Below are positions 22,845-46,294 of a stretch of 64,000 nucleotides of DNA, piece by piece (positions within the stretch are counted from its first letter, which is position 1; each line of letters starts with the position of its first letter). Location: positions 32,001-96,000 of the forward strand of contig CP000067.1 in assembly GCA_000002445.1 (NCBI GenBank), written 5' to 3'. Position numbers and translations under genes: made by a program. The notes beneath the pieces are model-generated. The model searched no databases. It was given only the letters and a program-made list of their open reading frames with translations, and was not told where the DNA came from. Source of the DNA: Trypanosoma brucei. Taxonomy: Eukaryota.

Positions 22845-24542
22845 TTAATTCATCATCATATTTCTGATCATCAGCGATAGGGCTTGACATTTGTATGATT
22901 CGACTCCTCCAACATTTCCTTTTACTCTTACAATCTTCACCAACTTGTTCATAACTTCATCGTTCCGCCAGTCAGCCGTGTGTTCAATAATATCATTATA
23001 GCAATATTTATCAGATTTCTTCATAGCTCTCAACGCATCATACACACTTTTCAGATGCCACTCATAACAACCTAAACCAAATATATAACGAGGCAGCGGT
23101 CCAATTAAATTAATGCGTTCCTCCACTATTTTCCACTCATCTTCAATTTCTCTCTTCAATTCGTATCTTCTTCTGTTGGACACCTTTTCTCCTGTATGTA
23201 TTGACAGCTTTTTCCATGCCATAAATGCCTTCATGTCACGCACATCATCGCAGTTCATAATAATTTGGTGGCCTCCCTTATTTGCACTCCACTCATCAAA
23301 ATGGTCACTTTTAGGGAAAGTGAGGAAAGTTACACTCCAAACATCAGAGGGAAGTTGAGTGTATAGTTGCTCCATTGCATACCTTGTGTCCATAACAATG
23401 TGCCCTTTGCTTTCAGATTTCATTTTATTTATGGCAGCAACGGCAGACTCCCAGCGTTCGTATTCATCAACAGTCCCTCTTTCCTCACCCTCTCGGTTGT
23501 ATATCAGGAAGGCAGAATCCTCCAAGAAATATGCAACAACATCAAGCATTCCTTCATTGAAGTGAAGCAGTGAATAAAATAAAAATGATCCAAGGCCACA
23601 TGTTTTACCAATTCCAGACGTGCCAATAATAATATGTATTGGTGGACCCTCAGCTGTTGCTTCCATCCACCATGCTTTCAGACCTCGTTGGATTATATAC
23701 CACACGCGCATAATTTCACGACGGATATATACATGCTTGCAAATTGTCTTGCATCTCTCAGTGTAACCCAATACAAACCTGTTGTATGGCCAACCCTTCT
23801 CCGACGTAAGAACAAAAATCTCCAAACCATTGGATCCTTCCTTTACTCTTGCATCAACATCGGCAGTTTTAGGAGTTATATTCAATTCTGCCTCCGTCCA
23901 TATGCGCTGCGGCCTTCCATCGAATACCTTCATTCCAAGTGGCTCCGCATCATAACCCGACATCACATAACTCCATTTCGCATTGTAAAAAGAATCGTAA
24001 ACATCTCGACAACTTTTGACAGAAACACGCGGCAGAAACCATACTTCTGATTCCGTGACAGCATATTGTACTGCATTCAACCTTCCCCTTGCTACAGGGC
24101 TAATGGAGTTTTTCACCTCTGGAGTTGCACCGTTCACCCAATCGCTGATGGTATAAATTTTTTCCTCTTTAAGGTAGTTTATCCACATTTCTGTTTCAGG
24201 CAGTTTCTCAACAATCCTTTTGTACTCCCTGAACTCATAAAGCCCCTGTATATCCTCAAGAATCTCGGCATCCTTAATATAATCTTCAGGATTCTTAACA
24301 AACGTTTCCATTGACACATTCACTGTGTTATACGTGTTTGAGAAGCATTGATTCAAAAAGTCATGCAGATTCATTTTGGGCAATGTCGCATATTCTTCCA
24401 GCAAAAAATCCCTCACTGTACTGTTCATTTTACAATCAGAAAATCTTTTATATCTCTGCGGCATCTGTGGAGGCTGAGCAGGAGGAGGTGCTACATGTTC
24501 ATCCCGTGGCCTCCTCATGGCTCCTTCAATGTTATTTGGCAC
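22845..24542 (-). CDS. RHS: RHS-like protein, array copy 1. It has the N-terminal RHS domain and P-loop core but lacks the C-terminal RHS domain. The canonical ATG is replaced by ATA, and the first ATG is 8 codons into the track ORF.
   Basis: IIGTSGIGKTCG P-loop. Co-linear with the RHS pseudogene 14048-16410 up to ...YKCQALS, then stop. The track start is GTG; the ATA is at 24592-24594. Confidence 0.65.
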   Translation of the reverse strand: MPNNIEGAMRRPRDEHVAPPPAQPPQMPQRYKRFSDCKMNSTVRDFLLEEYATLPKMNLHDFLNQCFSNTYNTVNVSMETFVKNPEDYIKDAEILEDIQGLYEFREYKRIVEKLPETEMWINYLKEEKIYTISDWVNGATPEVKNSISPVARGRLNAVQYAVTESEVWFLPRVSVKSCRDVYDSFYNAKWSYVMSGYDAEPLGMKVFDGRPQRIWTEAELNITPKTADVDARVKEGSNGLEIFVLTSEKGWPYNRFVLGYTERCKTICKHVYIRREIMRVWYIIQRGLKAWWMEATAEGPPIHIIIGTSGIGKTCGLGSFLFYSLLHFNEGMLDVVAYFLEDSAFLIYNREGEERGTVDEYERWESAVAAINKMKSESKGHIVMDTRYAMEQLYTQLPSDVWSVTFLTFPKSDHFDEWSANKGGHQIIMNCDDVRDMKAFMAWKKLSIHTGEKVSNRRRYELKREIEDEWKIVEERINLIGPLPRYIFGLGCYEWHLKSVYDALRAMKKSDKYCYNDIIEHTADWRNDEVMNKLVKIVRVKGNVGGVESYKCQALSLMIRNMMMN

Positions 24543-24653
24543 TTGTGGGTTTGCGTTATTTCCTTGTGGAGCTGCGGGGCTATTGGCTCTTGATATAACT
24601 ATTTTAACAACCGTTATTAACTTAACTATCTTTTCTTAACTTTACTTTTTTAA

Positions 24654-24710
24654 CTGAAATTATAAATAGCTGAAGTAAAGCAGCCGATGAGGAAAACAAA
24701 AGTGTGTGAA
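24654..24710 (-). promoter_or_regulatory. Putative polypyrimidine tract plus AG trans-splice acceptor region for array copy 1. Equivalent sites exist in the other units.
   Basis: The sense strand reads cacacttttgttttcctcatcggctgctttacttcag, with AG about 110 nt upstream of the coding start. Inferred from sequence context only. Confidence 0.3.
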
Positions 24711-27700
24711 TTGTGTAACATAATATCAAATGTGATAGAGCAAGATAATATTTATTTACCGCTGTTTGCATAATATGATATCATAATGTATTTGATATTA
24801 AGGAAAACAATTTCAAAATATAGTAGCTGTTAATAAATTATTTCCCTTGCTTCATCATTATGTGCCAAATATAATTAATTTCCTGTATCATTCTTTTTAA
24901 ACCATATATAATATGGAAACAAAAAATATTACTGCCTCATACACCTGAATAAACACTTTGTATAGAGTTGACAGTTGTGAAAGGTCAAATTCTATTAATT
25001 AAAATCATTTTTTAAAAATAAACAATAAGCAGAAATATATATGGATATTAATGAAAGGGGAAAAGAATATCGGCACGAGGTATGGATATACACACATTAG
25101 TACAGACACATGAATACACAACTGTTTTCCTGCTATTTCCTCCTTTCTGCCAATACGAGGCATTCAGTTGTATTGAAGGAACTCGTTGAAATATAAATCA
25201 TTTTTCTAACCCATATACTTACCACCGGAATAACGTATTGAATAATCTCTGTATGATATTTATGGAATTGATAATTCTTTTTTCCCCTTTTATAACGTGG
25301 AATGCTGATGCAGCTCTTGGTAGTGTTTCACCAGCAGTCTTCATTGAGATTCCATGCGGTGTCGTAGCATTGTGAGGAGAGTTCTGGGCAGAGGAGACCC
25401 GGGTTCCGCAATGTTGGATTCAGTGTGGGGCCGACATTGGCTCACGATAGGACTCATGAAGGAGCTTGTGAGAGTTCTCTTTTCATGCGCAATCCGAAAG
25501 AGTAGAGGACAATGAATTTATGTCTCCGGTAAAAGAGAGGTTCATCACGTTGTTCACTATATTTGCTTCCGCCTCGTTCATTTAGTGGTTGTTGTGACCC
25601 TTTTTTCTGGGGTGGGGGATTTCTGTCCCTCTTTTCCTCAATGCTACCGCTTTGTCTCGAGTTTTGTGTGTCTGCTTTTGTGCCTTGGTGAAACTCAAAA
25701 GAAACGCTAGCGAAAGGCTCACAGAAGTTAATAAATATATTTGTAGAAATAATCCAATAATGGACCTCTTTTGAGGAATGGTGAGTGAAAAAAATGGTGC
25801 AAAAAAACATTGAAAATTTATGCCACATGGACAAGTGCTTTATAATGTTCCCACTGTGTGGAAATATGGAATATATAAGGAACATATGAGAGGCAGTGAA
25901 TAGTTATAGAACAAACGGAATATATGGAGAACAAGAAACGTAGGGAATATATCAAATGTATGGTATATATGGAATGTATGAGAGGCAAAAAGTATGGAAA
26001 AACTTTGTTAATTGAATATACATTCATGTATTCTCAGGTGCTGGATGTGTTTGTGCGTGTATTTATATGTATGTGTTCTCTGCTTTATATATCACTAAAT
26101 ATTTTACACATTTCATTTTACTTTGCGTATGCTAATAGCTTGTTTTTCCTTGCATCAATTCATGGAAATATCTATTAGAGAAATAATAATTTACTTTTTC
26201 TCTTCCTTTCCCGCTAATGTTTCACCGCCTATTTCCATTCCTTATAAATACTGTAAATTTCTTTTGTTACTGTAACTATTTCCAAAAAAAATGTAAGTAA
26301 GACAGTTTAAGCATTACACATCATAATATCTCCAAACTCCTTCTATGTTATGTTAAGCTACAAATATTTTCATTCCCATTAATTTTATTCAGCAGAACAT
26401 ACAAAACACCCTCAAAAGTCCTTCCTTCCTTTCTTTATTTTTTTTTTTGAAATCATAATATATCTTGTGGAATATACAAATATATAATAACCATAAATGT
26501 GTTATATATCATCAAAACATCAGCAGCTTCACGACATAATTGTGTCCTTCAATAAGCAGTGGTTGTGTTTCCTTTTATTTTATCTCAGAGTCAAACTAAT
26601 TAATTAATTACTAACAGCATCCTCCAAAAATGTTTCTTCTATTTTCTTGGATCACTCAGCAGCGTAACACCGGAGTATTGAAATAAAGAGTCACAGTTCA
26701 AAGAATACAAAACAGTAAAAAAAATAAACAGAGGCTCGCACCTTCACAATTGGTTGCATTTGGATATATCAAACGCATTTATACACTTGCATTCCTTGTG
26801 TTTCTTTTTTGGGGGAGGGTAAATGCAAAATGTATCAAGTTGACGAGTAGAAGAAATACAGCACTTGATATAATTTCACTTACATATAAGCTTTCGTTTC
26901 CCACTTTATTCTAATTCATAATATTTAGATAGCAATGTAATGCAGTATTCAGCAATAAACATTTTAACCATAAATATAGTAACTAATGTGTGAATGGTAG
27001 CCCATGGCGATACATTCCATATGGAACAATACCACATTGTTAAATATATACATCGAATTAAAACTATAGCACTAAATTGAAAATGAAAAATTAGAAGAGA
27101 GAAAGATATGAATTATCAAAAGAGGCATATTCTTCACTAACATGCACTTGTTTCAATACAATCATAATTTCAAATTACTTTAAATGATAAGTGGCCCAAT
27201 GTCCTGAAATGACACAATAACAATGATTTCATTATAGCACCTGTAAAATAATGATATGAAATAAAATAAATAATAAAAATAAATAAAAATACAGCAAGCA
27301 CTGCAGAATATATTTTACTGCTATAACCATTTGCCAACAGATGAATAGCTTTGCTCATTGGAAGAAAATAATTAAATTCAAACTTCCTATGACTATGCCA
27401 GTGTTAATGAGCTACGTGTGGGACTCAAAAAAAAAAACAAAAAGTTTATTTTAAATAAACATGAAGAAAAGAAAAACTTCTCATGAAACCATAAGGGTAT
27501 CCGTGTGAGTTATGTGCTGCTGTCAAACATAGTTAACTTCACAACCCTTAAGAAAGAGAGAAATAATAAAAGTAAAATGTAAACAAAAATAAAGGTAAGA
27601 TATATAATACACTTATGCTTAACTAAATGTAACATGTCATACGTAAAGGTGATAAAATAATAATCACAATGTAATGTTATCAATGCTTTCCTTCGCAAAC

Positions 27701-28276
27701 GAAAACTGTCACATCTCAATGTGTTCTTTCAAATTAATATAAAGGAACCAGCTGTGTTTGTATAATATTCTACAATGTCATTTGGCATTGTCCAATGCTC
27801 ACTCAAAAAACTCCTTCGTTTTGTTGCGATGTAGCTGTTGTCAGTTGTGCTCTTTTTTTATTTTATTTTTTAACATACAACTATGGGTTTCCGTAATCCT
27901 CTCAATATTGCTGCAGTTCCCATCATTAAAAAAAAACAAAAGAAATCCATCAAAATAGCGTAACTGGAGTATAAGATGTTGTAGAGAACAATGTATTTAT
28001 TTTGAGTAATGGAACTCTGTGAGGTCGAAGACAATAATCCTAAACGATTGAACCGAAACTTTCATTGCCCCATGCCTGTAAAATAATAATTTAATTGCTC
28101 AACGCATATTCTCATCCTGCAGTAAGTAGTTCAAACAATTTCGTACACACATGAAACACTGGAAGGAAAAGAAAACATATACATTGCATAAACCTTTACT
28201 AAATGAAAATACTATTTTTGGTATCGAGTTCACCATGTGTTACAGAGCCACATTTCACTAACATGCTAAAGCATAA

Positions 28277-29974
28277 TTAATTCATCATCATATTTCTGAT
28301 CATCAGCGATAGGGCTTGACATTTGTATGATTCGACTCCTCCAACATTTCCTTTTACTCTTACAATCTTCACCAACTTGTTCATAACTTCATCGTTCCGC
28401 CAGTCAGCCGTGTGTTCAATAATATCATTATAGCAATATTTATCAGATTTCTTCATAGCTCTCAACGCATCATACACACTTTTCAGATGCCACTCATAAC
28501 AACCTAAACCAAATATATAACGAGGCAGCGGTCCAATTAAATTAATGCGTCCCTCCACTATTTTCCACTCATCTTCAATTTCTCTCTTCAATTCGTATCT
28601 TCTTCTGTTGGACACCTTTTCTCCTGTATGTATTGACAGCTTTTTCCATGCCATAAATGCCTTCATGTCACGCACATCATCGCAGTTTATAATAATATGG
28701 TGGCCTCCCTTATTTGCACTCCACTCATCAAAATGGGCACTTTTAGGGAAAGTGAGGAAAGTTACACTCCAAACATCAGAGGGAAGTTGAGTGTATAGTT
28801 CCTCCATTGCATACCTTGTGTCCATAACAATGTGCCCTTTGCTTTCAGATTTCATTTTATTTATGGCAGAAACGGCAGACTCCCAGCGTTTGTATTCATC
28901 AACAGTCCCTCTTCCCTCACCCTCTCGGTTGTATATCAGGAAGGCAGCATCCTCCAAGAAATATGCAACAACATCAAGCATTCCTTCATTGAAGTGAAGC
29001 AGTGAATAAAATAAAAATGATCCAAGGCCACATGTTTTACCAATTCCAGACGTGCCAATAATAATATGTATTGGTGGACCCTCAGCTGTTGCTTCCATCC
29101 ACCATGCTTTCAGACCTCGTTGGATTATATACCACACGCGCATAATTTCACGACGGATATATACATGCTTGCAAATTGTCTTGCATCTCTCAGTGTAACC
29201 CAATACAAACCTGTTGTATGGCCAACCCTTCTCCGACGTAAGAACAAAAATCTCCAAACCATTGGATCCTTCCTTTACTCTTGCATCAACATCGGCAGTT
29301 TTAGGAGTTATATTCAATTCTGCCTCCGTCCATATGCGCTGCGGCCTTCCATCGAATACCTTCATTCCAAGTGGCTCCGCATCATAACCCGACATCACAT
29401 AACTCCATTTCGCATTGTAAAAAGAATCGTAAACATCTCGACAACTTTTGACAGAAACACGCGGCAGAAACCATACTTCTGATTCCGTGACAGCATGTTG
29501 TACTGCATTCAACCTTCCCCTTGCTACGGGGCTAATGGAGTTTTTCACCTCTGGAGTTGCACCGTTCACCCAATCGCTGATGGTAAAAATTTTTTCCTCT
29601 TTTAGGTAGTTTATCCACATTTCTGTTTCAGGCAGTTTCTCAACAATCCTTTTGTACTCCCTGAACTCATAAAGCCCCTGTATATCCTCAAGAATCTCGG
29701 CATCCTTAATATAATCTTCAGGATTCTTAACAAACGTTTCCATTGACACATTCACTGTGTTATACGTGTTTGAGAAGCATTGATTCAAAAAGTCATGCAG
29801 ATTCATTTTGGGCAATGTCGCATATCTTTCCAGCAAAAAATCCCTCACTGTACTGTTCATTTTCCAATCAGAAAATCTTTTATATCTCTGCGGCATCTGT
29901 GGAGGCTGAGCAGGAGGAGGTGCTACATGTTCATCCCGTGGCCTCCTCATGGGCCCTTCAATGTTATTTGGCAC
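28277..29974 (-). CDS. RHS: RHS-like protein, array copy 2 (C-terminal domain absent, ATA at the canonical start position).
   Basis: About 98% identical to copies 3 and 4. The ATA is at 30026-30028. Confidence 0.65.
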   Translation of the reverse strand: MPNNIEGPMRRPRDEHVAPPPAQPPQMPQRYKRFSDWKMNSTVRDFLLERYATLPKMNLHDFLNQCFSNTYNTVNVSMETFVKNPEDYIKDAEILEDIQGLYEFREYKRIVEKLPETEMWINYLKEEKIFTISDWVNGATPEVKNSISPVARGRLNAVQHAVTESEVWFLPRVSVKSCRDVYDSFYNAKWSYVMSGYDAEPLGMKVFDGRPQRIWTEAELNITPKTADVDARVKEGSNGLEIFVLTSEKGWPYNRFVLGYTERCKTICKHVYIRREIMRVWYIIQRGLKAWWMEATAEGPPIHIIIGTSGIGKTCGLGSFLFYSLLHFNEGMLDVVAYFLEDAAFLIYNREGEGRGTVDEYKRWESAVSAINKMKSESKGHIVMDTRYAMEELYTQLPSDVWSVTFLTFPKSAHFDEWSANKGGHHIIINCDDVRDMKAFMAWKKLSIHTGEKVSNRRRYELKREIEDEWKIVEGRINLIGPLPRYIFGLGCYEWHLKSVYDALRAMKKSDKYCYNDIIEHTADWRNDEVMNKLVKIVRVKGNVGGVESYKCQALSLMIRNMMMN

Positions 29975-32900
29975 TTGTGGGTTTGCGTTATTTCCTTGTG
30001 GAGCTGCGGGGCTATTGGCTTTTGATATTACAATTATAATAATAATTATTATCTTAACTATCTTTTCTTAACTTTACTTTTTTAACTGAAATTATAAATA
30101 GCTGAAGTAAAGCAGCCGATGAGGAAAACAAAAGTGTGTGAATTGTGTAACATAATATCAAAAGTAATAGAGCAAGATAATATTTATTTACCGCTGTTTG
30201 CATAATATGATATCATAATGTATTTGATATTAAGGAAAACAATTTCAAAATATAGTAGCTGTTAATAAATATTTCCCTTACTTCATTATCATGTGCCAAA
30301 TATAATTAATTTCATGTATCATTTCTTTTTAAACAACGAATAATATGGAAACAAAAAATATTACTGCCTCATACACCTGAATAAACACTTTGTATAGAGT
30401 TGACAGTTGTGAAAGGTCAAATTCTATTAATTAAAATCATTTTTTAAAAATAAACAATAAGCAGAAAAATATATGGATATTAATGAAAGGGGAAAAGAAT
30501 ATCGGCACGAGGTATGGATATACACACATTAGTACAGACACATGAATACACAACTGTTTTCCTGCTATTTCCTCCTTTCTGCCAATACGAGGCATTCAGT
30601 TGTATTGAAGGAACTCGTTGAAATATAAATCATTTTTCTAACCCATATACTTACCACCGGAATAACGTATTGAATAATCTCTGTATGATATTTATGGAAT
30701 TGATAATTCTTTTTTCCCCTTTTATAACGTGGAATGCTGATGCAGCTCTTGGTAGTGTTTCACCAGCAGTCTTCATTGAGATTCCATGCGGTGTCGTAGC
30801 ATTGTGAGGAGAGTTCTGGGCAGAGGAGACCCGGGTTCCGCAATGTTGGATTCAGTGTGGGGCCGACATTGGCTCACGATAGGACTCATGAAGGAGCTTG
30901 TGAGAGTTCTCTTTTCATGCGCAATCCGAAAGAGTAGAGGACAATGAAGTTATGTCTCCGGTAAAAGAGAGGTTCATCACGTTGTTCACTATATTTGCTT
31001 CCGCCTCGTTCATTTAGTGGTTGTTGTGACCTTTTTTTTTTCTGGGGTGGGGGATTTCTGTCCCTCTTTTCCTCAATGCTACCGCTTTGTCTCGAGTTTT
31101 GTGTGTCTGCGTTTGTGCCTTGGTGAAACTCAAAAGAAACGCTAGCGAAAGGCTCACAGAAGGTAATAAATATATTTGTAGAAATAATCCAATAATGGAC
31201 CTCTTTTGAGGAATGGTGAGTGAAAAAAATGGTGCAAAAAAACATTGAAAATTTATGCCACATGGACAAGTGCTTTATAATGTTCCCACTGTATAGAAAT
31301 ATGGAATATATAAGGAACATATGGGAGGCAGTGAATATTTATAGAACAAACGGAATATATGGAGAACAAGAAACGTAGGGAATATATCAAATGTATGGTA
31401 TATATGGAATGTATGAGAGGCAAAAAGTATGGAAAAACTTTGTTAATTGAATATACATTCATGTATTCTCAGGTGCTGGATGTGTTTGTGCGTGTATTTG
31501 TATGTATGTGTTCTCTGCTTTATATATCACTAAATATTTTACACATTTCATTTTACTTTGCGTATGCTAATAGCTTGTTTTTCCTTGCATCAATTCATGG
31601 AAATATCTATTAGAGAAATAATAATTTACTTTTTCTCTTTCTTTCCCGCTAATGTTTCACCGCCTATTTTCATTCCTTATAAATACTGTAAATTTCTTTT
31701 TGTTACTGTAACTATTTCCAAAAAAAATGTAATGGAGACACTTTAAGCATTACATATCATAATATCTCTAAACTCCTTCTATGTTATGTTAAGTTACTAA
31801 TATTTTCATTCCCATTAATTTTATTCAGCAGAACATACAAAACACCCTCAAAAGTCCTTCCTTCCTTTCTTTATTTTTTTTTTGAAATCATAATATATCT
31901 TGTGGAATATACAAATATATAATAACCATAAATGTGTTATATATCTTCACAACATCAGAAGCTTCACGACATAATTGTGTTCCTCAAGAAGCAGTGGTTG
32001 TGTTTCCTTTTACTTTCTCTCAGAGTCAAACTAATTAATTAATTACTAATAACTTCCTCCAAAGATATTGCTTCTATTTTCTTGGATCAACGAGCAGCGT
32101 AACACCGGAGTATTGAAATGAAGAGTCACAGTTCAAAGAATATAAAACACAGAATAAATAGACAGAGACTCGCACCTTCACAATTGGTTGCATTTGGATA
32201 CATCAAACATATTTTTTCGCCTCCTTGTGTTTTTTTGGACGTGGGAGGGGTAAATGCAAAATGCAAAATGTATCAAGTTGACGAGTAGCAGAAATACAAC
32301 ACTTGATATAATTTCACTTACATATAAGCTTTCGTTTCCCACTTTATTCTAATTCATAATATTTTGATAGCAATGTAATGCAGTATTCAGCCATAAACAT
32401 TTTAGCCATAAATATAGTAACTAATGTGTGAATGGTAGCCCATGGCGATACATTCCATATGAAACAATACCACATTGTTAAATATATACATGGAATTAAA
32501 ACTATAGCACTAAATTGAAAATGAAAAATTAAAAGAGAAAAAGATATGAATTATCAAAAGAGGCATATTCTTCACTAACATGCATTTGTTTCAATACAAT
32601 CATAATTTGAAATTACTTTAAATGATAAGTGGCCCAATGTCCTGAAATGACACAATAACAATGATTTCATTATAGCACCTGTAAAATAATGATATGCAAT
32701 AAAGTAAATAATAAAAATAAATAAAAATACAGCAAGCACTGCAGAATATATTTTACTGCTATAACCATTTGCCAACAGATGAATAGCTTTGCTCATTGGA
32801 AGAAAATAATTAAATTCAAACTTCCTATGATTCTGCCAGTGTTAGTGAGCTACGTGTGGGACTCAAAAAACACAAAAGTTTATTTTAAATAAACATGAAG

Positions 32901-33710
32901 AAAAGAAAAACTTCTCATGAAACCATAAGGGTACCCCTGTGAGTTATGTGCTGCTGTAAAACATAGTTAACTTCACAACCCTTAAGAAAGAGAGAAATAA
33001 TAAAAGTAAAATGTAAACAAAAATAAAGGTAAGATATATAATACACTTATGCTTAACTAAATGTAACATGTCATACGTAAAGGTGATAAAATAATAATCA
33101 CAATGTAATGTTATCAATGCTTTCCTTCACAAACAAAAACTGTCACATCTCAATGTGTTCTTCCAAATTAATATAAAGGAACCAGCTGTGTTTGTATAAT
33201 ATTCTACAATGTCATTTGGCATTGTCCAATGCTCACTCAAAAAACTCCTTCGTTTTGTTGCGATGTAGCTGTTTTCAGTTGTGCTCTTTTTTTATTTTAT
33301 TTTTTAACATACAACTATGGGTTTCCGTAATCCTCTCAATATTGCTGCAGTTCCCATCATTAAAAAAAAACAAAAGAAATCCATCAAAATAGCGTAACTG
33401 GAGTATAAGATGTTGTAGAGAACAATGTATTTATTTTGAGTAATGGAACTCTGTGAGGTCGAAGACAATAATCCGAAACGATTGAACCGAAACTTTCATT
33501 GCCCCATGCCTGTAAAATAATAATTTAATTGCTCAACGCATATTCTCATCCTGCAGTAAGTAGTTCAAACAATTTCGTACACACATGAAACACTGGAAGG
33601 AAAAGAAAACATATACATTGCATAAACCTTTACTAAATGAAAATACTATTTTTGGTATCGAGTTCACCAAGTGTTGCAGAGCCACATTTCACTAACATGC
33701 TAAAGCATAA

Positions 33711-35408
33711 TTAATTCATCATCATATTTCTGATCATAAGCGATAGGGCTTGACATTTGTATGATTCGACTCCTCCAACATTTCCTTTTACTCTTACAAT
33801 CTTCACCAACTTGTTCATAACTTCATCGTTCCGCCAGTCAGCCGTGTGTTCAATAATATCATTATAGCAATATTTATCAGATTTCTTCATAGCTCTCAAC
33901 GCATCATACACACTTTTCAGATGCCACTCATAACAACCTAAACCAAATATATAACGAGGCAGCGGTCCAATTAAATTAATGCGTCCCTCCACTATTTTCC
34001 ACTCATCTTCAATTTCTCTCTTCAATTCGTATCTTCTTCTGTTGGACACCTTTTCTCCTGTATGTATTGACAGCTTTTTCCATGCCATAAATGCCTTCAT
34101 GTCACGCACATCATCGCAGTTTATAATAATATGGTGGCCTCCCTTATTTGCACTCCACTCATCAAAATGGGCACTTTTAGGGAAAGTGAGGAAAGTTACA
34201 CTCCAAACATCAGAGGGAAGTTGAGTGTATAGTTCCTCCATTGCATACCTTGTGTCCATAACAATGTGCCCTTTGCTTTCAGATTTCATTTTATTTATGG
34301 CAGCAACGGCAGACTCCCAGCGTTTGTATTCATCAACAGTCCCTCTTCCCTCACCCTCTCGGTTGTATATCAGGAAGGCAGCATCCTCCAAGAAATATGC
34401 AACAACATCAAGCATTCCTTCATTGAAGTGAAGCAGTGAATAAAATAAAAATGATCCAAGGCCACATGTTTTACCAATTCCAGACGTGCCAATAATAATA
34501 TGTATTGGTGGACCCTCAGCTGTTGCTTCCATCCACCATGCTTTCAGACCTCGTTGGATTATATACCACACGCGCATAATTTCACGACGGATATATACAT
34601 GCTTGCAAATTGTCTTGCATCTCTCAGTGTAACCCAATACAAACCTGTTGTATGGCCAACCCTTCTCCGACGTAAGAACAAAAATCTCCAAACCATTGGA
34701 TCCTTCCTTTACTCTTGCATCAAAATCGGCAGTTTTAGGAGTTATATTCAATTCTGCCTCCGTCCATATGCGCTGCGGCCTTCCATCGAATACCTTCATT
34801 CCAAGTGGCTCCGCATCATAACCCGACATCACATAACTCCATTTCGCATTGTAAAAAGAATCGTAAACATCTCGACAACTTTTGACAGAAACACGCGGCA
34901 GAAACCATACTTCTGATTCCGTGACAGCATGTTGTACTGCATTCAACCTTCCCCTTGCTACGGGGCTAATGGAGTTTTTCACCTCTGGAGTTGCACCGTT
35001 CACCCAATCGCTGATGGTAAAAATTTTTTCCTCTTTAAGGTAGTTTATCCACATTTCTGTTTCAGGCAGTTTCTCAACAATCCTTTTGTACTCCCTGAAC
35101 TCATAAAGCCCCTGTATATCCTCAAGAATCTCGGCATCCTTAATATAATCTTCAGGATTCTTAACAAACGTTTCCATTGACACATTCACTGTGTTATACG
35201 TGTTTGAGAAGCATTGATTCAAAAAGTCATGCAGATTCATTTTGGGCAATGTCGCATATTCTTCCAGCAAAAAATCCCTCACTGTACTGTTCATTTTCCA
35301 ATCAGAAAATCTTTTATATCTCTGCGGCATCTGTGGAGGCTGAGCAGGAGGAGGTGCTACATGTTCATCCCGTGGCCTCCTCATGGGCCCTTCAATGTTA
35401 TTTGGCAC
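33711..35408 (-). CDS. RHS: RHS-like protein, array copy 3 (C-terminal domain absent, GTA at the canonical start position).
   Basis: Near-identical to copies 2 and 4. Confidence 0.65.
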   Translation of the reverse strand: MPNNIEGPMRRPRDEHVAPPPAQPPQMPQRYKRFSDWKMNSTVRDFLLEEYATLPKMNLHDFLNQCFSNTYNTVNVSMETFVKNPEDYIKDAEILEDIQGLYEFREYKRIVEKLPETEMWINYLKEEKIFTISDWVNGATPEVKNSISPVARGRLNAVQHAVTESEVWFLPRVSVKSCRDVYDSFYNAKWSYVMSGYDAEPLGMKVFDGRPQRIWTEAELNITPKTADFDARVKEGSNGLEIFVLTSEKGWPYNRFVLGYTERCKTICKHVYIRREIMRVWYIIQRGLKAWWMEATAEGPPIHIIIGTSGIGKTCGLGSFLFYSLLHFNEGMLDVVAYFLEDAAFLIYNREGEGRGTVDEYKRWESAVAAINKMKSESKGHIVMDTRYAMEELYTQLPSDVWSVTFLTFPKSAHFDEWSANKGGHHIIINCDDVRDMKAFMAWKKLSIHTGEKVSNRRRYELKREIEDEWKIVEGRINLIGPLPRYIFGLGCYEWHLKSVYDALRAMKKSDKYCYNDIIEHTADWRNDEVMNKLVKIVRVKGNVGGVESYKCQALSLMIRNMMMN

Positions 35409-38400
35409 TTGTGGGTTTGCGTTATTTCCTTGTGGAGCTGCGTGGCTATTGGCTCTTGATACAACTATTTTAACAACCGTTATTAACTTAACTATCTTTT
35501 CTTAACTTTACTTTTTTAACTGAAATTATAAATAGCTGAAGTAAAGCAGCCGATGAGGAAACAAAAGTGTGTGAATTGTGTAACATAATATCAAAAGTAA
35601 TATAGCAAGATAATATTTATTTACCGCTGTTTGCATAATATGATATCATAATGTATTTGATATTAAGGAAAACAATTTCAAAATATAGTAGCTGTTAATA
35701 AATATTTCCCTTACTTCATTATCATGTGCCAAATATAATTAATTTCATGTATCATTTCTTTTTAAACAACGAATAATATGGAAACAAAAAATATTACTGC
35801 CTCATACACCTGAATAAACACTTTGTATAGAGTTGACAGTTATGAAAGGTCAAATTCTATTAATTAAAATCATTTTTTAAAAATAAACAATAAGCAGAAA
35901 TATATATGGATATTAATGAAAGGGGAAAAGAATATCGGCACGAGGTATGGATATACACACATTAGTACAGACACATGAATACACAACTGTTTTCCTGCTA
36001 TTTCCTCCTTTCTGCCAATACGGGGCATTCAGTTGTATTGAAGGAACTCGTTGAAATATAAATCATTTTTCTAACCCATATACTTACCACCGGAATAACG
36101 TATTGAATAATCTCTGTAGAATATTTATGGAATTGATTATTCTTTTTTCCCCTTTTATAACGTGGAATGCTGATGCAGCTCTTGGTAGTGTTTCACCAGC
36201 AGTCTTCATTGAGATTCCATGCGGTGTCGTAGCATTGTGAGGAGAGTTCTGGGCAGAGGAGACCCGGGTTCCTCAATGTTGGATTCAGTGTGGGGCCGAC
36301 ATTGGCTCACGATAGGACTCATGAAGGAGCTTGTGAGAGTTCTCTTTTCATGCGCAATCCGAAAGAGTAGAGGACAATGAATTTATGTCTCCGGTAAAAG
36401 AGAGGTTCATCACGTTGTTCACTATATTTGCTTCCGCCTCGTTCATTTAGTGGTTGTTGTGACCCTTTTTTCTGGGGTGGGGGATTTCTGTCCCTCTTTT
36501 CCTCAATGCTACCGCTTTGTCTCGAGTTTTGTGTGTCTGCTTTTGTGCCTTGGTGAAACTCAAAAGAAACGCTAGCGAAAGGCTCACAGAAGGTAATAAA
36601 TATATTTGTAGAAATAATCCAATAATGGACCTCTTTTGAGGAATGGTGAGTGAGAAAAATGGTGCAAAAAAACATTGAAAATTTATGCCACATGGACAAG
36701 TGCTTTATAATGTTCCCACTGTGTGGAAATATGGAATATATAAGGAACATATGAGAGGCAGTGAATATTTATAGAACAAACGGAATATATGGAGAACAAG
36801 AAACGTAGGGAATATATCAAATGTATGGTATATATGGAATGTATGAGAGGCAAAAAGTATGGAAAAACTTTGTTAATTGAATATACATTCATGTATTCTC
36901 AGGTGCTGGATGTGTTTGTGCGTGTATTTGTATGTATGTGTTCTCTGCTTTATATATCACTAAATATTTTACACATTTCATTTTACTTTGCGTATGCTAA
37001 TAGCTTGTTTTTCCTTGCATCAATTCATGGAAATATCTATTAGAGAAATAATAATTTACTTTTTCTCTTTCTTTCCCGCTAATGTTTCACCGCCTATTTT
37101 CATTCCTTATAAATACTGTAAATTTCTTTTGTTACTGTAACTATTTCCAAAAAAAATGTAAGGGAGACACTTTAAGGATTACATATCATAATATCTCTAA
37201 ACTCCTTCTATGTTATGTTAAGTTACTAATATTTTCATTCCCATTAATTTTATTCAGCAGAACATACAAAACACCCTCAAAAGTCCTTCCTTCCTTTCTT
37301 TATTTTTTTTTTGAAATCATAATATATCTTGTGGAATATACAAATATATAATAACCATAAATGTGTTATATATCATCAAAACATCAGCAGCTTCACGACA
37401 TAATTGTGTCCTTCAATAAGCAGTGGCTGTGTTTTCTTTTATTTTATCTCAGAGTCAAACTAATTAATTAATTACTAACAGCATCCTCCAAAAATGTTTC
37501 TTCTATTTTCTTGGATCACTCAGCAGCGTAACACCGGAGTATTGAAATAAAGAGTCACAGTTCAAAGAATATAAAACAGTAAAAAAATAAACAGAGGCTC
37601 GCACCTTCACAATTGGTTGCATTTGGATATATCAAACATATTTTTTCGCCTCCTTGTGTTTTTTTGGACGTGGGAGGGGTAAATGCAAAATGCAAAATGT
37701 ATCAAGTTGACGAGTAGCAGAAATACACCACATGATATAATTTCACTTACATGCAAGCTTTCTTTTACAACTTTATTCCAATTCATAATATTTAGATAGC
37801 AATGTAATGGAGCATTCAGCCATAAACATTTTAACCATAAATATAGTAACTAATGTGTGAATGGTAACCCATGGTGATACATTCCATATGGAACAATACC
37901 ACATTGTTAAATATACGCATGGAATTAAAACTATAGCACTAAATTGAAAATGAAAAATTAGAAGAGAGAAAGTTATGAATTATCAAAAGAGGCATATTCT
38001 TCACTAACATGCATTTGTTTCAATACAATCATAATTTGAAATTACTTTAAATGATAAGTGGCCCAATGTCCTGAAATGACACAATAACAATGATTTCATT
38101 ATAGCACCTGTAAAATAATGATATGCAATAAAGTAAATAATATAAATAAATAAAAATACAGCAAGCACTGCAGAATATATTTTACTGCTATAACCATTTG
38201 CCAACAGATGAATAGCTTTGCTCATTGGAAGAAAATAATTAAATTCAAACTTCCTATGACTATGCCAGTGTTAATGAGCTACGTGTGGGACTCAAAAAAA
38301 AAACAAAAAGTTTATTTTAAATAAACATGAAGAAAAGAAAAACTTCTCATGAAACCATAAGGGTATCCGTGTGAGTTATGTGCTGCTGTCAAACATAGTT

Positions 38401-39145
38401 AACTTCACAACCCTTAAGAAAGAGAGAAATAATAAAAGTAAAATGTAAACAAAAATAAAGGTAAGATATATAATACACTTATGCTTAACTAAATGTAACA
38501 TGTCATACGTAAAGGTGATAAAATAATAATCACAATGTAATGTTATCAATGCTTTCCTTCGCAAACGAAAACTGTCACATCTCAATGTGTTCTTTCAAAT
38601 TAATATAAAGGAACCAGCTGTGTTTGTATAATATTCTACAATGTCATTTGGTGTTGTCCAATGCTCACTCAAAAAACTCCTTCGTTTTGTTGCGATGTAG
38701 CTGTTGACAGTGTTGTGCTCTTTTTCTTTTTTATTTTTTAACATACAACTATGGGTTTCCGTAATCCTCTCAATATTGTTGCAGTTCCCATCATTAAAAA
38801 AAAAACAAAAGAAATCCATCAAAATAGCGTAACTGGAGTATAAGATGTTGTAGAGCACAATGTATTTATTTTGAGTAATGGAACTCTGTGAGGTCGAAGA
38901 CAATAATCCTAAACGATTGAACCGAAACTTTCATTGCCCCATGCCTGTAAAATAATAATTTAATTGCTCAACGCATATTCTCATCCTGCAGTAAGTAGTT
39001 CAAACAATTTCGTACACACATGAAACACTGGAAGGAAAAGAAAACATATACATTGCATAAACCTTTACTAAATGAAAATACTATTTTTGGTATCGAGTTC
39101 ACCAAGTGTTGCAGAGCCACATTTCACTAACATGCTAAAGCATAA

Positions 39146-40843
39146 TTAATTCATCATCATATTTCTGATCATCAGTGATAGGGCTTGACATTTGTATGAT
39201 TCGACTCCTCCAACATTTCCTTTTACTCTTACAATCTTCACCAACTTGTTCATAACTTCATCGTTCCGCCAGTCAGCCGTGTGTTCAATAATATCATTAT
39301 AGCAATATTTATCAGATTTCTTCATAGCTCTCAACGCATCATACACACTTTTCAGATGCCACTCATAACAACCTAAACCAAATATATAACGAGGCAGCGG
39401 TCCAATTAAATTAATGCGTCCCTCCACTATTTTCCACTCATCTTCAATTTCTCTCTTCAATTCGTATCTTCTTCTGTTGGACACCTTTTCTCCTGTATGT
39501 ATTGACAGCTTTTTCCATGCCATAAATGCCTTCATGTCACGCACATCATCGCAGTTTATAATAATATGGTGGCCTCCCTTATTTGCACTCCACTCATCAA
39601 AATGGGCACTTTTAGGGAAAGTGAGGAAAGTTACACTCCAAACATCAGAGGGAAGTTGAGTGTATAGTTCCTCCATTGCATACCTTGTGTCCATAACAAT
39701 GTGCCCTTTGCTTTCAGATTTCATTTTATTTATGGCAGCAACGGCAGACTCCCAGCGTTTGTATTCATCAACAGTCCCTCTTCCCTCACCCTCTCGGTTG
39801 TATATCAGGAAGGCAGCATCCTCCAAGAAATATGCAACAACATCAAGCATTCCTTCATTGAAGTGAAGCAGTGAATAAAATAAAAATGATCCAAGGCCAC
39901 ATGTTTTACCAATTCCAGACGTGCCAATAATAATATGTATTGGTGGACCCTCAGCTGTTGCTTCCATCCACCATGCTTTCAGACCTCGTTGGATTATATA
40001 CCACACGCGCATAATTTCACGACGGATATATACATGCTTGCAAATTGTCTTGCATCTCTCAGTGTAACCCAATACAAACCTGTTGTATGGCCAACCCTTC
40101 TCCGACGTAAGAACAAAAATCTCCAAACCATTGGATCCTTCCTTTACTCTTGCATCAACATCGGCAGTTTTAGGAGTTATATTCAATTCTGCCTCCGTCC
40201 ATATGCGCTGCGGCCTTCCATCGAATACCTTCATTCCAAGTGGCTCCGCATCATAACCCGACATCACATAACTCCATTTCGCATTGTAAAAAGAATCGTA
40301 AACATCTCGACAACTTTTGACAGAAACACGCGGCAGAAACCATACTTCTGATTCCGTGACAGCATGTTGTACTGCATTCAACCTTCCCCTTGCTACGGGG
40401 CTAATGGAGTTTTTCACCTCTGGAGTTGCACCGTTCACCCAATCGCTGATGGTAAAAATTTTTTCCTCTTTAAGGTAGTTTATCCACATTTCTGTTTCAG
40501 GCAGTTTCTCAACAATCCTTTTGTACTCCCTGAACTCATAAAGCCCCTGTATATCCTCAAGAATCTCGGCATCCTTAATATAATCTTCAGGATTCTTAAC
40601 AAACGTTTCCATTGACACATTCACTGTGTTATACGTGTTTGAGAAGCATTGATTCAAAAAGTCATGCAGATTCATTTTGGGCAATGTCGCATATTCTTCC
40701 AGCAAAAAATCCCTCACTGTACTGTTCATTTTCCAATCAGAAAATCTTTTATATCTCTGCGGCATCTGTGGAGGCTGAGCAGGAGGAGGTGCTACATGTT
40801 CATCCCGTGGCCTCCTCATGGGCCCTTCAATGTTATTTGGCAC
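39146..40843 (-). CDS. RHS: RHS-like protein, array copy 4 (C-terminal domain absent, GTA at the canonical start position).
   Basis: Near-identical to copies 2 and 3. Confidence 0.65.
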   Translation of the reverse strand: MPNNIEGPMRRPRDEHVAPPPAQPPQMPQRYKRFSDWKMNSTVRDFLLEEYATLPKMNLHDFLNQCFSNTYNTVNVSMETFVKNPEDYIKDAEILEDIQGLYEFREYKRIVEKLPETEMWINYLKEEKIFTISDWVNGATPEVKNSISPVARGRLNAVQHAVTESEVWFLPRVSVKSCRDVYDSFYNAKWSYVMSGYDAEPLGMKVFDGRPQRIWTEAELNITPKTADVDARVKEGSNGLEIFVLTSEKGWPYNRFVLGYTERCKTICKHVYIRREIMRVWYIIQRGLKAWWMEATAEGPPIHIIIGTSGIGKTCGLGSFLFYSLLHFNEGMLDVVAYFLEDAAFLIYNREGEGRGTVDEYKRWESAVAAINKMKSESKGHIVMDTRYAMEELYTQLPSDVWSVTFLTFPKSAHFDEWSANKGGHHIIINCDDVRDMKAFMAWKKLSIHTGEKVSNRRRYELKREIEDEWKIVEGRINLIGPLPRYIFGLGCYEWHLKSVYDALRAMKKSDKYCYNDIIEHTADWRNDEVMNKLVKIVRVKGNVGGVESYKCQALSLMIRNMMMN

Positions 40844-44575: not shown

Positions 44576-46294
44576 TTAATTCATCATCATATTTCTGATC
44601 ATCAGCGATAGGGCTTGACATTTGTATGATTCGACTCCTCCAACATTTCCTTTTACTCTTACAATCTTCACCAACTTGTTCATAACTTCATCGTTCCGCC
44701 AGTCAGCCGTGTGTTCAATAATATCATTATAGCAATATTTATCAGATTTCTTCATAGCTCTCAACGCATCATACACTCTTTTCAGATGCCACTCATAACA
44801 ACCTAAACCAAATATATAACGAGGCAGCGGTCCAATTAAATTAATGCGTCCCTCCACTATTTTCCACTCATCTTCAATTTCTCTCTTCAATTCGTATCTT
44901 CTTCTGTTGGACACCTTTTCTCCTGTATGTATTGACAGCTTTTTCCATGCCATAAATGCCTTCATGTCACGCACATCATCGCAGTTCATAATAATTTGGT
45001 GGCCTCCCTTATTTGCACTCCACTCATCAAAATGGGCACTTTTAGGGAAAGTGAGGAAAGTTACACTCCAAACATCAGAGGGAAGTTGAGTGTATAGTTT
45101 CTCCATTGCATACCTTGTGTCCATAATAATGTGTCCTCTGTTTTCAAATTTCATTTTATTTATGGCAGCAACGGCAGACTCCCAGCGTTCGTATTCATCA
45201 ACAGTCCCTCTTTCCTCACCCTCTCGGTTGTATATCAGGAAGGCAGCATCCTCCAAGAAATATGCAACAACATCAAGCATTCCTTCATTGAAGTGAAGCA
45301 GTGAATAAAATAAAAATGATCCAAGGCCACATGTTTTACCAATTCCAGACGTGCCAATAATAATATGTATTGGTGGACCCTCAGCTGTTGCTTCCATCCA
45401 CCATGCTTTCAGACCTCGTTGGATTATATACCACACGCGCATAATTTCACGACGGATATATACATGCTTGCAAATTGTCTTGCATCTCTCAGTGTAACCC
45501 AATACAAACCTGTTGTATGGCCAACCCTTCTCCGACGTAAGAACAAAAATCTCCAAACCATTGGATCCTTCCTTTACTCTTGCATCAAAATCGGCAGTTT
45601 TAGGAGTTATATTCAATTCTGCCTCCGTCCATATGCGCTGCGGCCTTCCATCGAATACCTTCATTCCAAGTGGCTCCGCATCATAACCCGACATCACATA
45701 ACTCCATTTCGCATTGTAAAAAGAATCGTAAACATCTCGACAACTTTTGACAGAAACACGCGGCAGAAACCATACTTCTGATTCCGTGACAGCATGTTGT
45801 ACTGCATTCAACCTTCCCCTTGCTACGGGGCTAATGGAGTTTTTCACTTCTGGAGTTGCACCGTTCACCCAATCGCTGATGGTAAAAATTTTTTCCTCAG
45901 AGAGATAAATATCTGCCCTCAGTAATTGAAACTCATCCGTATCCTGTATATCCTCAAGAATCTCGGCATCCTTAATATAATCTTCAGGATTCTTAACAAA
46001 CGTTTCCATTGACACATTCACTGTGTTATACGTGTTTGAGAAGCATTGATTCAAAAAGTCATGCAGATTCATTTTGGGCAATGTCGCATATTCTTCCAGC
46101 AAAAAATCCCTCACTGTACTGTTCATTTTCCAATCAGAAAATCTTTTATATCTCTGCGGCATCTGTGGAGGCTGAGCAGGAGGAGGTGCTACATTTTCAT
46201 CCCGTGGCCTCCTCATGGGCCCTTCAATGTTATTTGGCACTTGTGGGTTTGCGTTATTTCCTTGTGGAGCTGCGGGGCTATTGGCTCTTGACAT
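44576..46294 (-). CDS. RHS: RHS-like protein, array copy 5, 572 aa. It is the first copy in transcription order. It keeps a true ATG, has an 18-aa N-terminal extension relative to the other copies, and carries a short mosaic segment.
   Basis: ATG at 46292-46294 (MSRANSPAAPQGNNANPQVPNNIEG...). The internal segment DTDEFQLLRADIYLSEE replaces GLYEFREYKRIVEKLPETEMWINYLKEE found in the other copies. Confidence 0.7.
   Translation of the reverse strand: MSRANSPAAPQGNNANPQVPNNIEGPMRRPRDENVAPPPAQPPQMPQRYKRFSDWKMNSTVRDFLLEEYATLPKMNLHDFLNQCFSNTYNTVNVSMETFVKNPEDYIKDAEILEDIQDTDEFQLLRADIYLSEEKIFTISDWVNGATPEVKNSISPVARGRLNAVQHAVTESEVWFLPRVSVKSCRDVYDSFYNAKWSYVMSGYDAEPLGMKVFDGRPQRIWTEAELNITPKTADFDARVKEGSNGLEIFVLTSEKGWPYNRFVLGYTERCKTICKHVYIRREIMRVWYIIQRGLKAWWMEATAEGPPIHIIIGTSGIGKTCGLGSFLFYSLLHFNEGMLDVVAYFLEDAAFLIYNREGEERGTVDEYERWESAVAAINKMKFENRGHIIMDTRYAMEKLYTQLPSDVWSVTFLTFPKSAHFDEWSANKGGHQIIMNCDDVRDMKAFMAWKKLSIHTGEKVSNRRRYELKREIEDEWKIVEGRINLIGPLPRYIFGLGCYEWHLKRVYDALRAMKKSDKYCYNDIIEHTADWRNDEVMNKLVKIVRVKGNVGGVESYKCQALSLMIRNMMMN

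What the first reader, a model, noticed from the sequence alone, without database searches (positions are those of the whole stretch)
45899..45950. Short gene-conversion patch in array copy 5, borrowed from the dispersed RHS pseudogene type
In copy 5 an ~80 nt segment present in copies 1-4 (encoding GLYEFREYKRIVEKLPETEMWINYLKEE) is replaced by ~46 nt encoding DTDEFQLLRADIYLSEE. Thirty nucleotides of the replacement (gataaatatctgccctcagtaattgaaactc) are identical, bar one base, to 16138-16167 in the RHS pseudogene at 14048-16410 (…RLEEFQLLRAVIYLP…). This is direct evidence of segmental sequence exchange between a dispersed pseudogene and an array member. It suggests RHS pseudogenes act as donors for mosaic diversification.
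Basis: seen in the sequence. Interest (0 to 1): 0.55.

Follow-up and report, generated by a model that had tools for sequence, protein, structure and literature searches.

The report
Short swapped segment in RHS gene
One gene in a five-copy trypanosome RHS array carries a real 44-base segment copied in from a different branch of the same family, an ordinary example of the paralogue-to-paralogue copying already known to make RHS genes mosaic.

Summary
In array copy 5 (Trypanosoma brucei TREU927 chromosome 4, minus strand), 44 nt at 45899-45942 replace the 77 nt found in copies 1-4. The flanks are about 99% identical. The change is in frame, 11 codons shorter.

The core of the patch matches the window's RHS pseudogene at 31 of 32 nt (16135-16166). 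That pseudogene is neither the unique nor the best match:
- A T. b. gambiense RHS pseudogene matches 40/42.
- RHS3-like genes match the 5' edge 36/36.
- No sampled sequence covers the whole patch.

The same patch is present in an independent T. b. equiperdum assembly, in a different array slot. It is therefore real and older than the strain split.

The patch is 94-97% identical to other RHS genes, while the sequence just downstream of it is only about 50-56% identical to them. The 77-nt version has no close relative outside the array. This favours import of the short version into the array, though direction is not proven.

Across 23 T. brucei RHS proteins, this position has three alternative forms. 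Together with an upstream module that also has three forms, 8 of the 9 possible combinations occur, so the N-terminus is pervasively mosaic. RHS mosaicism by gene conversion is already described. This is a new instance of a known process, of low to moderate interest.

The parts
45899..45942 (-). The patch: 44 nt in array copy 5 encoding (D)TDEFQLLRADIYLS. It replaces the 77-nt long cassette of copies 1-4.
   Evidence: The same patch is at L001 10275-10318 in T. b. equiperdum.
40469..40545 (-). Long cassette, 77 nt, in copy 4, encoding GLYEFREYKRIVEKLPETEMWINYLK. Equivalent segments lie at 35034-35110 (copy 3), 29600-29676 (copy 2) and 24168-24244 (copy 1).
   Evidence: No match outside the array in about 177 kb sampled.
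44576..46294 (-). Array copy 5, the first copy in the direction of transcription. It is a 572-aa RHS3-like protein (XP_844180.1) and the only copy with the MSRANSP... start codon and the native upstream flank.
22845..40819 (-). Array copies 1-4, with CDS at 22845-24518, 28277-29950, 33711-35384 and 39146-40819. Each encodes 557 aa and the repeat period is about 5.43 kb. All four carry the long cassette. The original ATG is replaced by ATA or GTA.
16135..16166 (-). Core match to the patch (31/32 nt) inside the dispersed RHS pseudogene, encoding ...EFQLLRAVIYL...
14048..16370 (-). Dispersed RHS pseudogene. It is 5'-truncated and has a frameshift between about 16008 and 15958. A 624-aa ORF remains downstream.
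45943..45964 (-). 5' junction homology. GAGATTCTTGAGGATATACAGG is identical in all array copies and in RHS3-like genes L003 and L005. It gives a possible 22-nt perfect homology for the exchange, and the true tract may extend into it.
   Evidence: 36/36 identity across GAGATTCTTGAGGATATACAGGATACGGATGAGTTT.
45886..45898 (-). 3' junction. GAGGAAAAAATTT in the array and GAGAAAGAAATTT in the donor type share 11/13 nt. The switch back to array sequence falls within or after GAG.

Best explanation
The patch is the footprint of a short ectopic (non-allelic) gene-conversion tract between diverged RHS paralogues.

The array lineage is RHS3-like genes on T. brucei chromosome 4. It originally carried a diverged long form of a length-variable helix at the end of the DUF7578 domain. 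In one array copy, a tract of at least 44 nt and at most about 70 nt was copied from a dispersed RHS gene or pseudogene of the short QLLRAVIYL type. On the 5' side the exchange was anchored in a 22-nt stretch identical between the array and some RHS genes. On the 3' side it resolved in an 11/13-nt imperfect match (GAGRAARAAATTT).

The product stays in frame. The predicted helix is shortened from about 25 to about 14 residues. The converted version has since been moved or retained differently within the array by intra-array conversion or unequal crossing-over. It sits in the first copy in TREU927 and in the second copy in T. b. equiperdum.

**Shown:** the replacement, its sharp borders, its excess similarity to other RHS lineages, its presence in two assemblies, and family-wide reassortment of this cassette.

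**Inferred:** the direction of transfer, the tract limits, the recombination pathway, and the identity of the donor, which was not sampled.
For: **Discontinuity.** Inside the segment 21/44 bases match and there is a 33-nt indel. Copy 5 and copy 4 differ at 2/349 nt upstream and 14/1326 nt downstream.

**The patch is much closer to other RHS lineages than the sequence downstream of it.**
- Best 35-nt windows are 34/35 to L002 (permutation p = 5e-5) and 33/35 to L004. The match to the window pseudogene is 31/32.
- The 5' part is 36/36 to L003 and L005.
- Overall N-terminal DNA identity of copy 5 to these copies is 61-64%. Identity downstream of the patch is 50-56%.
- In a 14-codon comparison with L002 (42 nt, taking in 3 nt on either side of the 44-nt patch), the codons match at third positions except one (sequences). 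This argues for recent common descent rather than protein-level constraint.

**The long cassette looks native to the array.** It has no DNA match outside the array in the window plus six loci. By eye from the alignment, it is only about a third to two-fifths identical in amino acids to the long cassettes of RHS1 and RHS4. That is the same order of divergence as the array-specific sequence just downstream.

**Independent assembly.** T. b. equiperdum carries the patch (2 nt different) in the second copy and the long form in the HECT-adjacent first copy.

**Family context.** There are three cassette forms (S, M, L) and three upstream module forms. Eight of the nine combinations occur among 23 T. 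brucei RHS proteins, including within single C-terminal subfamilies and within single 90%-identity clusters.

**Literature.**
- Mosaic RHS genes formed by gene conversion are described in T. cruzi (PMC7563717).

**Structure.** AF2 models place the cassette in a single helix, residues 120-133 in copy 5 and 94-118 in copy 4, with pLDDT about 77-89.
Against: - No sampled sequence matches the whole 44 nt. The best fit is a composite of two RHS types, so the donor is hypothetical.
- The genome could not be searched as DNA. TREU927 loci are not retrievable with these tools, so an unsampled close relative of the 77-nt long segment cannot be excluded.
- Other short windows of the array's 5' region also reach 33/35 identity to other RHS copies in all five copies. 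High local similarity is therefore not unique to the patch. The 5' region as a whole may be in continuing exchange, which weakens the argument about direction.
- The minority state (1 of 5 copies in TREU927) does not show it is derived, because concerted evolution can spread either form.
- The T. b. equiperdum array abuts a contig end and may be collapsed.
Confidence: 0.65

Rival explanations
1. Reverse direction. The founder of the array was already a chimera whose family-common 5' part ended with the short cassette, so copy 5 and Teq2 keep the ancestral state. The long cassette was later copied into one duplicate from a diverged RHS copy and spread to most array members by concerted evolution.
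For: - Copy 5 is the copy with the native upstream flank and start codon, so it is plausibly the founder position.
- In copy 5 the border between family-common and array-specific sequence coincides with the 3' end of the patch.
- Copy 5 carries the family-common state at several other sites where copies 1-4 share a different base.
- The short motif is widespread in the family.
Against: - It needs a donor for the long cassette that is as diverged as the array itself. None was seen in about 177 kb of DNA or among the 23 T. brucei RHS proteins examined.
- The patch is 94-97% identical to other RHS copies. The rest of the array's 5' region is only about 63-71% identical to them, so the patch looks younger than its upstream neighbourhood.
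- In T. b. equiperdum the founder-position copy has the long form.
Confidence: 0.2
2. The change arose by reciprocal crossover or unequal recombination at the array edge, not by a short non-crossover tract. On this view copy 5 is a hybrid gene whose 5' part comes from another RHS locus.
For: - Copy 5 is the edge copy, and array homology ends at its start codon.
- Crossing-over in the 5' region is the mechanism attributed to Bringaud 2002 for chimeric RHS pseudogenes (PMC7563717).
Against: - The 349 nt upstream of the patch are 99.4% identical to copies 1-4. They are only 63-71% identical to other RHS copies. The foreign sequence is therefore bounded on both sides, within about 70 nt.
- In T. 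b. equiperdum the patch sits in an internal copy that has the array spacer upstream.
Confidence: 0.05
3. Assembly or consensus artefact, or local mutation (a deletion plus point changes), with no exchange between paralogues.
For: Repeated arrays are prone to misassembly, and only one of the five copies differs.
Against: - Two independent assemblies of different subspecies carry the patch.
- There are 23 mismatches and a 33-nt length change within 77 nt, against 16 differences in 1675 flanking nt.
- The replacement matches other RHS genes codon for codon.
Confidence: 0.02

Closest known systems
Mosaic RHS genes formed by segmental and interlocus gene conversion in Trypanosoma cruzi (Bernardo et al. 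2020, PMC7563717)
   Same: - Same protein family.
- Short fragments of one RHS are inserted into another. Some inserted fragments are only about 4% of the gene; here the patch is 44 nt of 1719 nt, or 2.6%.
- Events are frequent in the region coding for the amino terminus.
- Pseudogenes and unclassified copies are proposed as sequence reservoirs.
   Different: - Different species.
- Here the recipient is a member of a near-identical tandem array, so the borders can be read to the base.
- The donor is not identified.
- No formal RDP or GENECONV analysis of the whole family was possible.
Chimeric RHS (pseudo)genes of T. brucei formed by recombination in the conserved 5' region (Bringaud et al. 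2002, as cited in PMC7563717; the original paper is not held)
   Same: - Same species and family.
[quoted passage not shown]
- It explains why N-terminal modules are uncoupled from C-terminal subfamilies.
   Different: That model is crossing-over producing hybrid genes. Here the foreign tract is bounded on both sides within about 70 nt, which is a conversion patch rather than a crossover.
Ectopic gene conversion into T. brucei tandem arrays (Jackson 2007, PMC1855330: arrays Tb105a and Tb32)
   Same: A short region (about 30-200 bp) of one array member resembles a distant paralogue while the rest of the gene stays array-like.
   Different: - That survey judged ectopic conversion to be very rare among arrays.
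- The only RHS array it lists is RHS7.
- The chromosome 4 array was not seen in its main text.
Segmental gene conversion that builds mosaic VSG genes from silent genes and pseudogenes in T. brucei (references 57 and 58 of PMC7563717; otherwise from general knowledge)
   Same: Short templated patches are copied between diverged family members, using short stretches of homology at the junctions. Pseudogenes can act as donors.
   Different: - VSG mosaics arise somatically under immune selection at an expression site.
- The RHS patch is a germline-like, fixed feature shared by two subspecies.
- There is no evidence of selection or of a pseudogene donor.

Membership tests
RHS (retrotransposon hot spot) protein family | Pfam RHSP P-loop domain (PF07999) together with the RHS_N domain (PF20445) | tested here: met
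   Copy 5 scores RHSP 6e-55 and RHS_N 3e-31. Copy 4 scores 1e-54 and 2e-31. The P-loop GTSGIGKT is visible.
RHS (retrotransposon hot spot) protein family | N-terminal DUF7578 domain (PF24466), as in the full-length T. brucei RHS1-, RHS3- and RHS4-labelled proteins examined | tested here: met
   Copy 5 residues 73-128 score 1e-17 and copy 4 scores 7e-19. The patch lies at the C-terminal end of this domain.
RHS (retrotransposon hot spot) protein family | Retroelement (RIME/ingi) insertion hot spot just after the P-loop | tested here: met
   The array copies are intact at this site. The neighbouring RHS pseudogene has a 500-bp RIME at 8568-9067, directly after ...GSFLLQ, with an 11-bp target duplication.
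RHS3 subfamily | C-terminus of RHS3 type (...ALSLM.RNMMM[NS]) and about 570-590 aa in length | tested here: met
   Copy 5 is 65% identical over its full length to RHS3 Q8WPQ6 (P0002) and has the same C-terminal end. Whether it corresponds to Tb927.4.300 'RHS3' (PMC7952579) was not verified.
Ectopic (interlocus) gene-conversion tract | A sharp local break in similarity between paralogues that are otherwise nearly identical | tested here: met
   Identity is 21/44 with a 33-nt indel inside, against 16 differences in 1675 nt outside (p = 7e-30).
Ectopic (interlocus) gene-conversion tract | The tract is significantly more similar to a non-array paralogue than its flanks are | tested here: met
   The tract is 34/35 identical to L002 (permutation p = 5e-5) against an overall identity of 61%. 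A caveat is that another window shared by all array copies reaches 33/35 to the window pseudogene.
Ectopic (interlocus) gene-conversion tract | An identified donor that matches the entire tract, edges included | tested here: not met
   The window pseudogene matches only the 32-nt core. L002 matches 40/42 but lacks the 5' edge. L003 and L005 match the 5' edge 36/36 but lack the core. Only about 177 kb of T. brucei DNA could be searched.
Ectopic (interlocus) gene-conversion tract | Direction of transfer established by an outgroup or by dated orthologous arrays | tested here: inconclusive
   T. b. equiperdum has both forms, in different slots. The asymmetry in divergence favours import of the short form. 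No array from an outgroup strain was retrievable.
Pseudogene-templated mosaic formation (VSG-like) | The donor is a pseudogene | tested here: inconclusive
   Short-type cassettes occur in pseudogenes (the window copy at 16 kb, and L002/P0026) and in the intact RHS3 protein P0002.

The most novel reading that the evidence does not exclude
The DUF7578 end of T. brucei RHS proteins may be a combinatorial cassette region. A small set of discrete alternative modules would be repeatedly reassorted by very short conversion tracts that begin and end at conserved junction motifs (...EDIQ/DEF... and ...YL.E.K.I...). The modules include a helix of 14, 21 or 25 residues. On this reading the diversity is maintained by selection, for example to tune partner binding of these nuclear, transcription-associated proteins, rather than being neutral churn. 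The copy 5 patch would then be one caught-in-the-act event in a tandem array, a setting where ectopic conversion was thought to be very rare.
Probability: 0.15. Interest if true: 0.45.

Novelty: new member of a known kind. Interest (0 to 1): 0.25.

Why it matters
The near-identical array copies act as an internal control. They let a single ectopic conversion tract in a trypanosome multigene family be delimited to within a few bases: 44-70 nt, with 22 nt of perfect homology on one side and an 11/13-nt match on the other. That gives a concrete minimum substrate for homeologous exchange in T. brucei.

It also adds a case to a class that a genome-wide survey called very rare in tandem arrays. It shows, too, that RHS N-termini are assembled from interchangeable modules.

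It does not change what is known about how RHS genes diversify, and it says nothing yet about function.

Tried and rejected
- **Exact-protein look-ups.** Look-ups of copy 5 and of P0001 to retrieve TREU927 loci found no record. The rest of the TREU927 genome, including every long-type RHS gene, could therefore not be examined as DNA.
- **Short peptide search.** A homologue search with a 99-aa peptide spanning the patch returned nothing because of the word-index limit.
- **Bringaud et al. 2002** (PMC118050) is not held. It is cited only through PMC7563717.
- **Source for the long segment.** The 77-nt long segment was searched against the window and six loci. Only chance matches of 13 nt or less were found, apart from two short matches at homologous positions.
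- **MNQQ-type cassette.** I considered whether the long cassette comes from the MNQQ-type RHS N-terminus at 9.6-10.1 kb, which shares the YKR[IF]V motif. There is no DNA-level similarity, so this was rejected.
- **Plus-strand ORFs.** I considered an overlapping plus-strand ORF or another feature at the patch. Only short mechanical ORFs of up to 138 aa are present, and they were not examined further.
- **Collections not scanned.** The bacterial/archaeal, viral and metagenome collections were not scanned because they cannot contain T. brucei chromosomes.

Full report
**What the window is.** All genes of interest lie on the minus strand. A giant HECT-domain ORF (48881-63979) is followed by five tandem RHS genes about 5.43 kb apart. 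Further downstream are several dispersed RHS genes and pseudogenes.

The five array proteins are identical to XP_844176-XP_844180 of Trypanosoma brucei brucei TREU927, on a 1,590,432-bp chromosome. They carry the DUF7578, RHS_N and RHSP P-loop domains. Their closest named relative is RHS3 (65% identity, same C-terminal end).

**Checking the observation.** Copy 5 (44576-46294) is collinear with copies 1-4 except for one segment. The 44 nt at 45899-45942 replace 77 nt in the others, for example 40469-40545 in copy 4.

- Inside the segment, 21 of 44 alignable bases match and 33 columns are gaps.
- Outside it, copy 5 and copy 4 differ at 2 of 349 nt upstream and 14 of 1326 nt downstream (p = 7e-30).
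- The change removes exactly 11 codons, turning GLYEFREYKRIVEKLPETEMWINYLKEE into DTDEFQLLRADIYLSEE.
- The patch core matches the RHS pseudogene at 16135-16166 at 31 of 32 nt, at the homologous codons.
- That pseudogene is 5'-truncated and frameshifted.

**The patch is not an artefact and not private to copy 5.** The 90%-identity protein cluster of the array contains a 546-aa T. b. equiperdum protein with the same peptide. Its locus (L001, GCA_003543875.1) runs as follows:

- the HECT gene;
- a first RHS copy with the native upstream flank and ATG, which carries the long segment;
- a second copy with the patch, 2 nt different from copy 5;
- the contig end.

The patch therefore predates the separation of these two lineages and occupies a different array slot in each. 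Flanking single-base variants are not linked to it. This implies shuffling within the array. The caveat is that the T. b. equiperdum array abuts a contig end.

**Where the patch came from.** I retrieved DNA for five further RHS loci from T. b. gambiense and T. b. equiperdum.

| Comparator | Match to the patch |
|---|---|
| L002/L006 (T. b. gambiense pseudogene P0026) | best 35-nt window 34/35; 40/42 over GATGAG...TCTGAG; 41/42 to the ancestral patch inferred from copy 5 and the T. b. equiperdum copy |
| L004 | best 35-nt window 33/35 |
| Window pseudogene | 31/32 |
| L003/L005 (RHS3-like genes) | 5' edge 36/36 over GAGATTCTTGAGGATATACAGGATACGGATGAGTTT |

No sampled sequence covers both edges. 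The window pseudogene differs at both edges, so it is not the donor in any demonstrable sense. An intact RHS3 protein has the same motif, so a pseudogene donor is not required.

**Direction of transfer.** Overall DNA identity of the copy 5 N-terminal region to these comparators is 61-64%. It is 63-71% upstream of the patch and 50-56% downstream. A sliding-window profile shows 26-29 of 30 identical bases across the patch and the 30 nt before it. This falls to 10-20 of 30 just downstream.

The excess similarity is significant against L002 (permutation p = 5e-5). It includes synonymous third positions (sequences).

The 77-nt long segment has no match outside the array in about 177 kb. At the protein level it is a same-length but highly diverged version of the long cassette of RHS1 and RHS4. 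That fits the divergence of the array-specific sequence that follows it.

This asymmetry favours the long form as native to the array and the short form as the import. The conclusion is not secure, for three reasons:

- Another 35-nt window shared by all array copies is 33/35 identical to the window pseudogene. The whole 5' region may therefore be in ongoing exchange.
- Copy 5 sits in the founder position and carries the family-common base at several other sites.

**Tract and junctions.** The visible tract is 44 nt. If the donor resembled L003 at its 5' end, the tract could extend up to 22 nt further into sequence identical in array and donor (45943-45964). On the 3' side the switch back to array sequence occurs at GAG, within an 11/13-nt match (GAGGAAAAAATTT against GAGAAAGAAATTT). 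A short non-crossover conversion, roughly 44-70 nt, between homeologous sequences is the simplest reading. The pathway itself is inferred, not shown; it could be strand invasion with patchy mismatch repair or a microhomology-assisted route.

**Family context.** An alignment of 27 trypanosome RHS N-termini, 23 of them from T. brucei and its subspecies, shows that this position has three discrete forms:

- short: QLLRAVI-YL;
- medium: KTVKTAIDLSEKVD-YL;
- long: EEYKELYNQFSEMKRKAR-YL.

An upstream module about 30 codons away also has three forms. Eight of the nine combinations occur, including within one C-terminal subfamily and within single 90%-identity clusters. Cassette exchange in this region is therefore pervasive, and the copy 5 patch is one example.

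AF2 models (mean pLDDT 65-68; 77-89 locally) place the cassette in a single helix, residues 120-133 in copy 5 and 94-118 in copy 4. The neighbouring helices are unchanged. The swap thus shortens one helix by about three turns.

**Comparison with what is known.**
- Mosaic RHS genes produced by segmental and interlocus gene conversion are documented in T. cruzi. Some inserted fragments are only about 4% of the gene, events are frequent in the N-terminal coding region, and pseudogenes are proposed as reservoirs (PMC7563717).
- The same paper attributes to Bringaud et al. 2002 the idea that T. brucei RHS pseudogenes arise by recombination in the 5' region.
- A survey of T. brucei tandem arrays found ectopic conversion in only two arrays and called it very rare (PMC1855330). 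The only RHS array in its table is RHS7.

The present case is a new, unusually well-delimited instance of a known process. It is not a new kind of feature.

**Verdict.**
- Exchange between RHS lineages is supported.
- The named pseudogene as donor, and the general role of pseudogenes as donors, are not shown.

Interest is low to moderate.

Noticed in passing
window 46292-46294, compared with 40895-40897, 35460-35462, 30026-30028 and 24594-24596: Only copy 5 has the family's normal start codon (ATG TCA AGA GCC = MSRA...). Copies 1-4 read GTA or ATA there, and array homology ends at this codon. The tandem-duplication junction therefore lies at the start codon, and the four downstream copies must start at Met27. 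They are annotated as 557 aa against 572 aa for copy 5.
   Followed up: partly
window 45127-45147 (copy 5 nt 1148-1168, possibly extending to 1195): Copy 5 has a second cluster of five changes within 21 nt (KMKFENRGHII against KMKSESKGHIV in copies 1-4 and in both T. b. equiperdum copies). Most of the copy 5 states are shared with other RHS genes. This could be a second micro-conversion or a retained ancestral state.
   Followed up: partly
L001 about 4727-4740 (first array copy in T. b. equiperdum): A separate 13-nt replaced tract turns FLNQCFSN into FLMKKFSN. It resembles the HDFLLKKF module of other RHS genes. A 1-nt frameshift lies just before the long cassette. No DNA donor was found in the sampled loci.
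   Followed up: partly
window 8568-9067 (minus strand), with flanking repeats at 9068-9078 and 8557-8567: A 500-bp RIME element (starting CCCTGGCGATGCCGGCC and ending in poly(A)) is inserted at the classic RHS hot spot, right after the P-loop region (...GSFLLQ). It has an 11-bp target-site duplication, TCCTGCTCCAA. It splits an MNQQ-type RHS pseudogene into two parts, 9071-10102 and 7136-8568.
   Followed up: partly
RHS protein set P0002-P0056 (alignment): T. brucei RHS N-termini are built from discrete alternative modules. One module has the forms LHDFLNQ, LHDFLLKKF and VNDFIQKF, and the cassette has short, medium and long forms. Eight of the nine combinations occur, even within single 90%-identity clusters (for example P0020 against P0054, and P0008 against P0052).
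   Followed up: yes
window 45886-45964 region; models m4d637d796e61 and m124d8eb9470e: AF2 predicts that the swapped cassette is a single alpha-helix whose length changes from about 25 to about 14 residues, while the neighbouring helices of the DUF7578 region stay in place.
   Followed up: partly
window 48881-63979 (minus strand): An ORF of more than 5000 codons with a C-terminal HECT ubiquitin-ligase domain lies immediately upstream of the RHS array. The same gene precedes the array in T. b. equiperdum.
   Followed up: partly
window 2907-4946 and 17436-19463 (minus strand): Two further intact RHS ORFs (679 and 675 aa) have the RHS_N and RHSP domains but no DUF7578 domain. They belong to other subfamilies, so the region is a mixed RHS cluster.
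   Followed up: no
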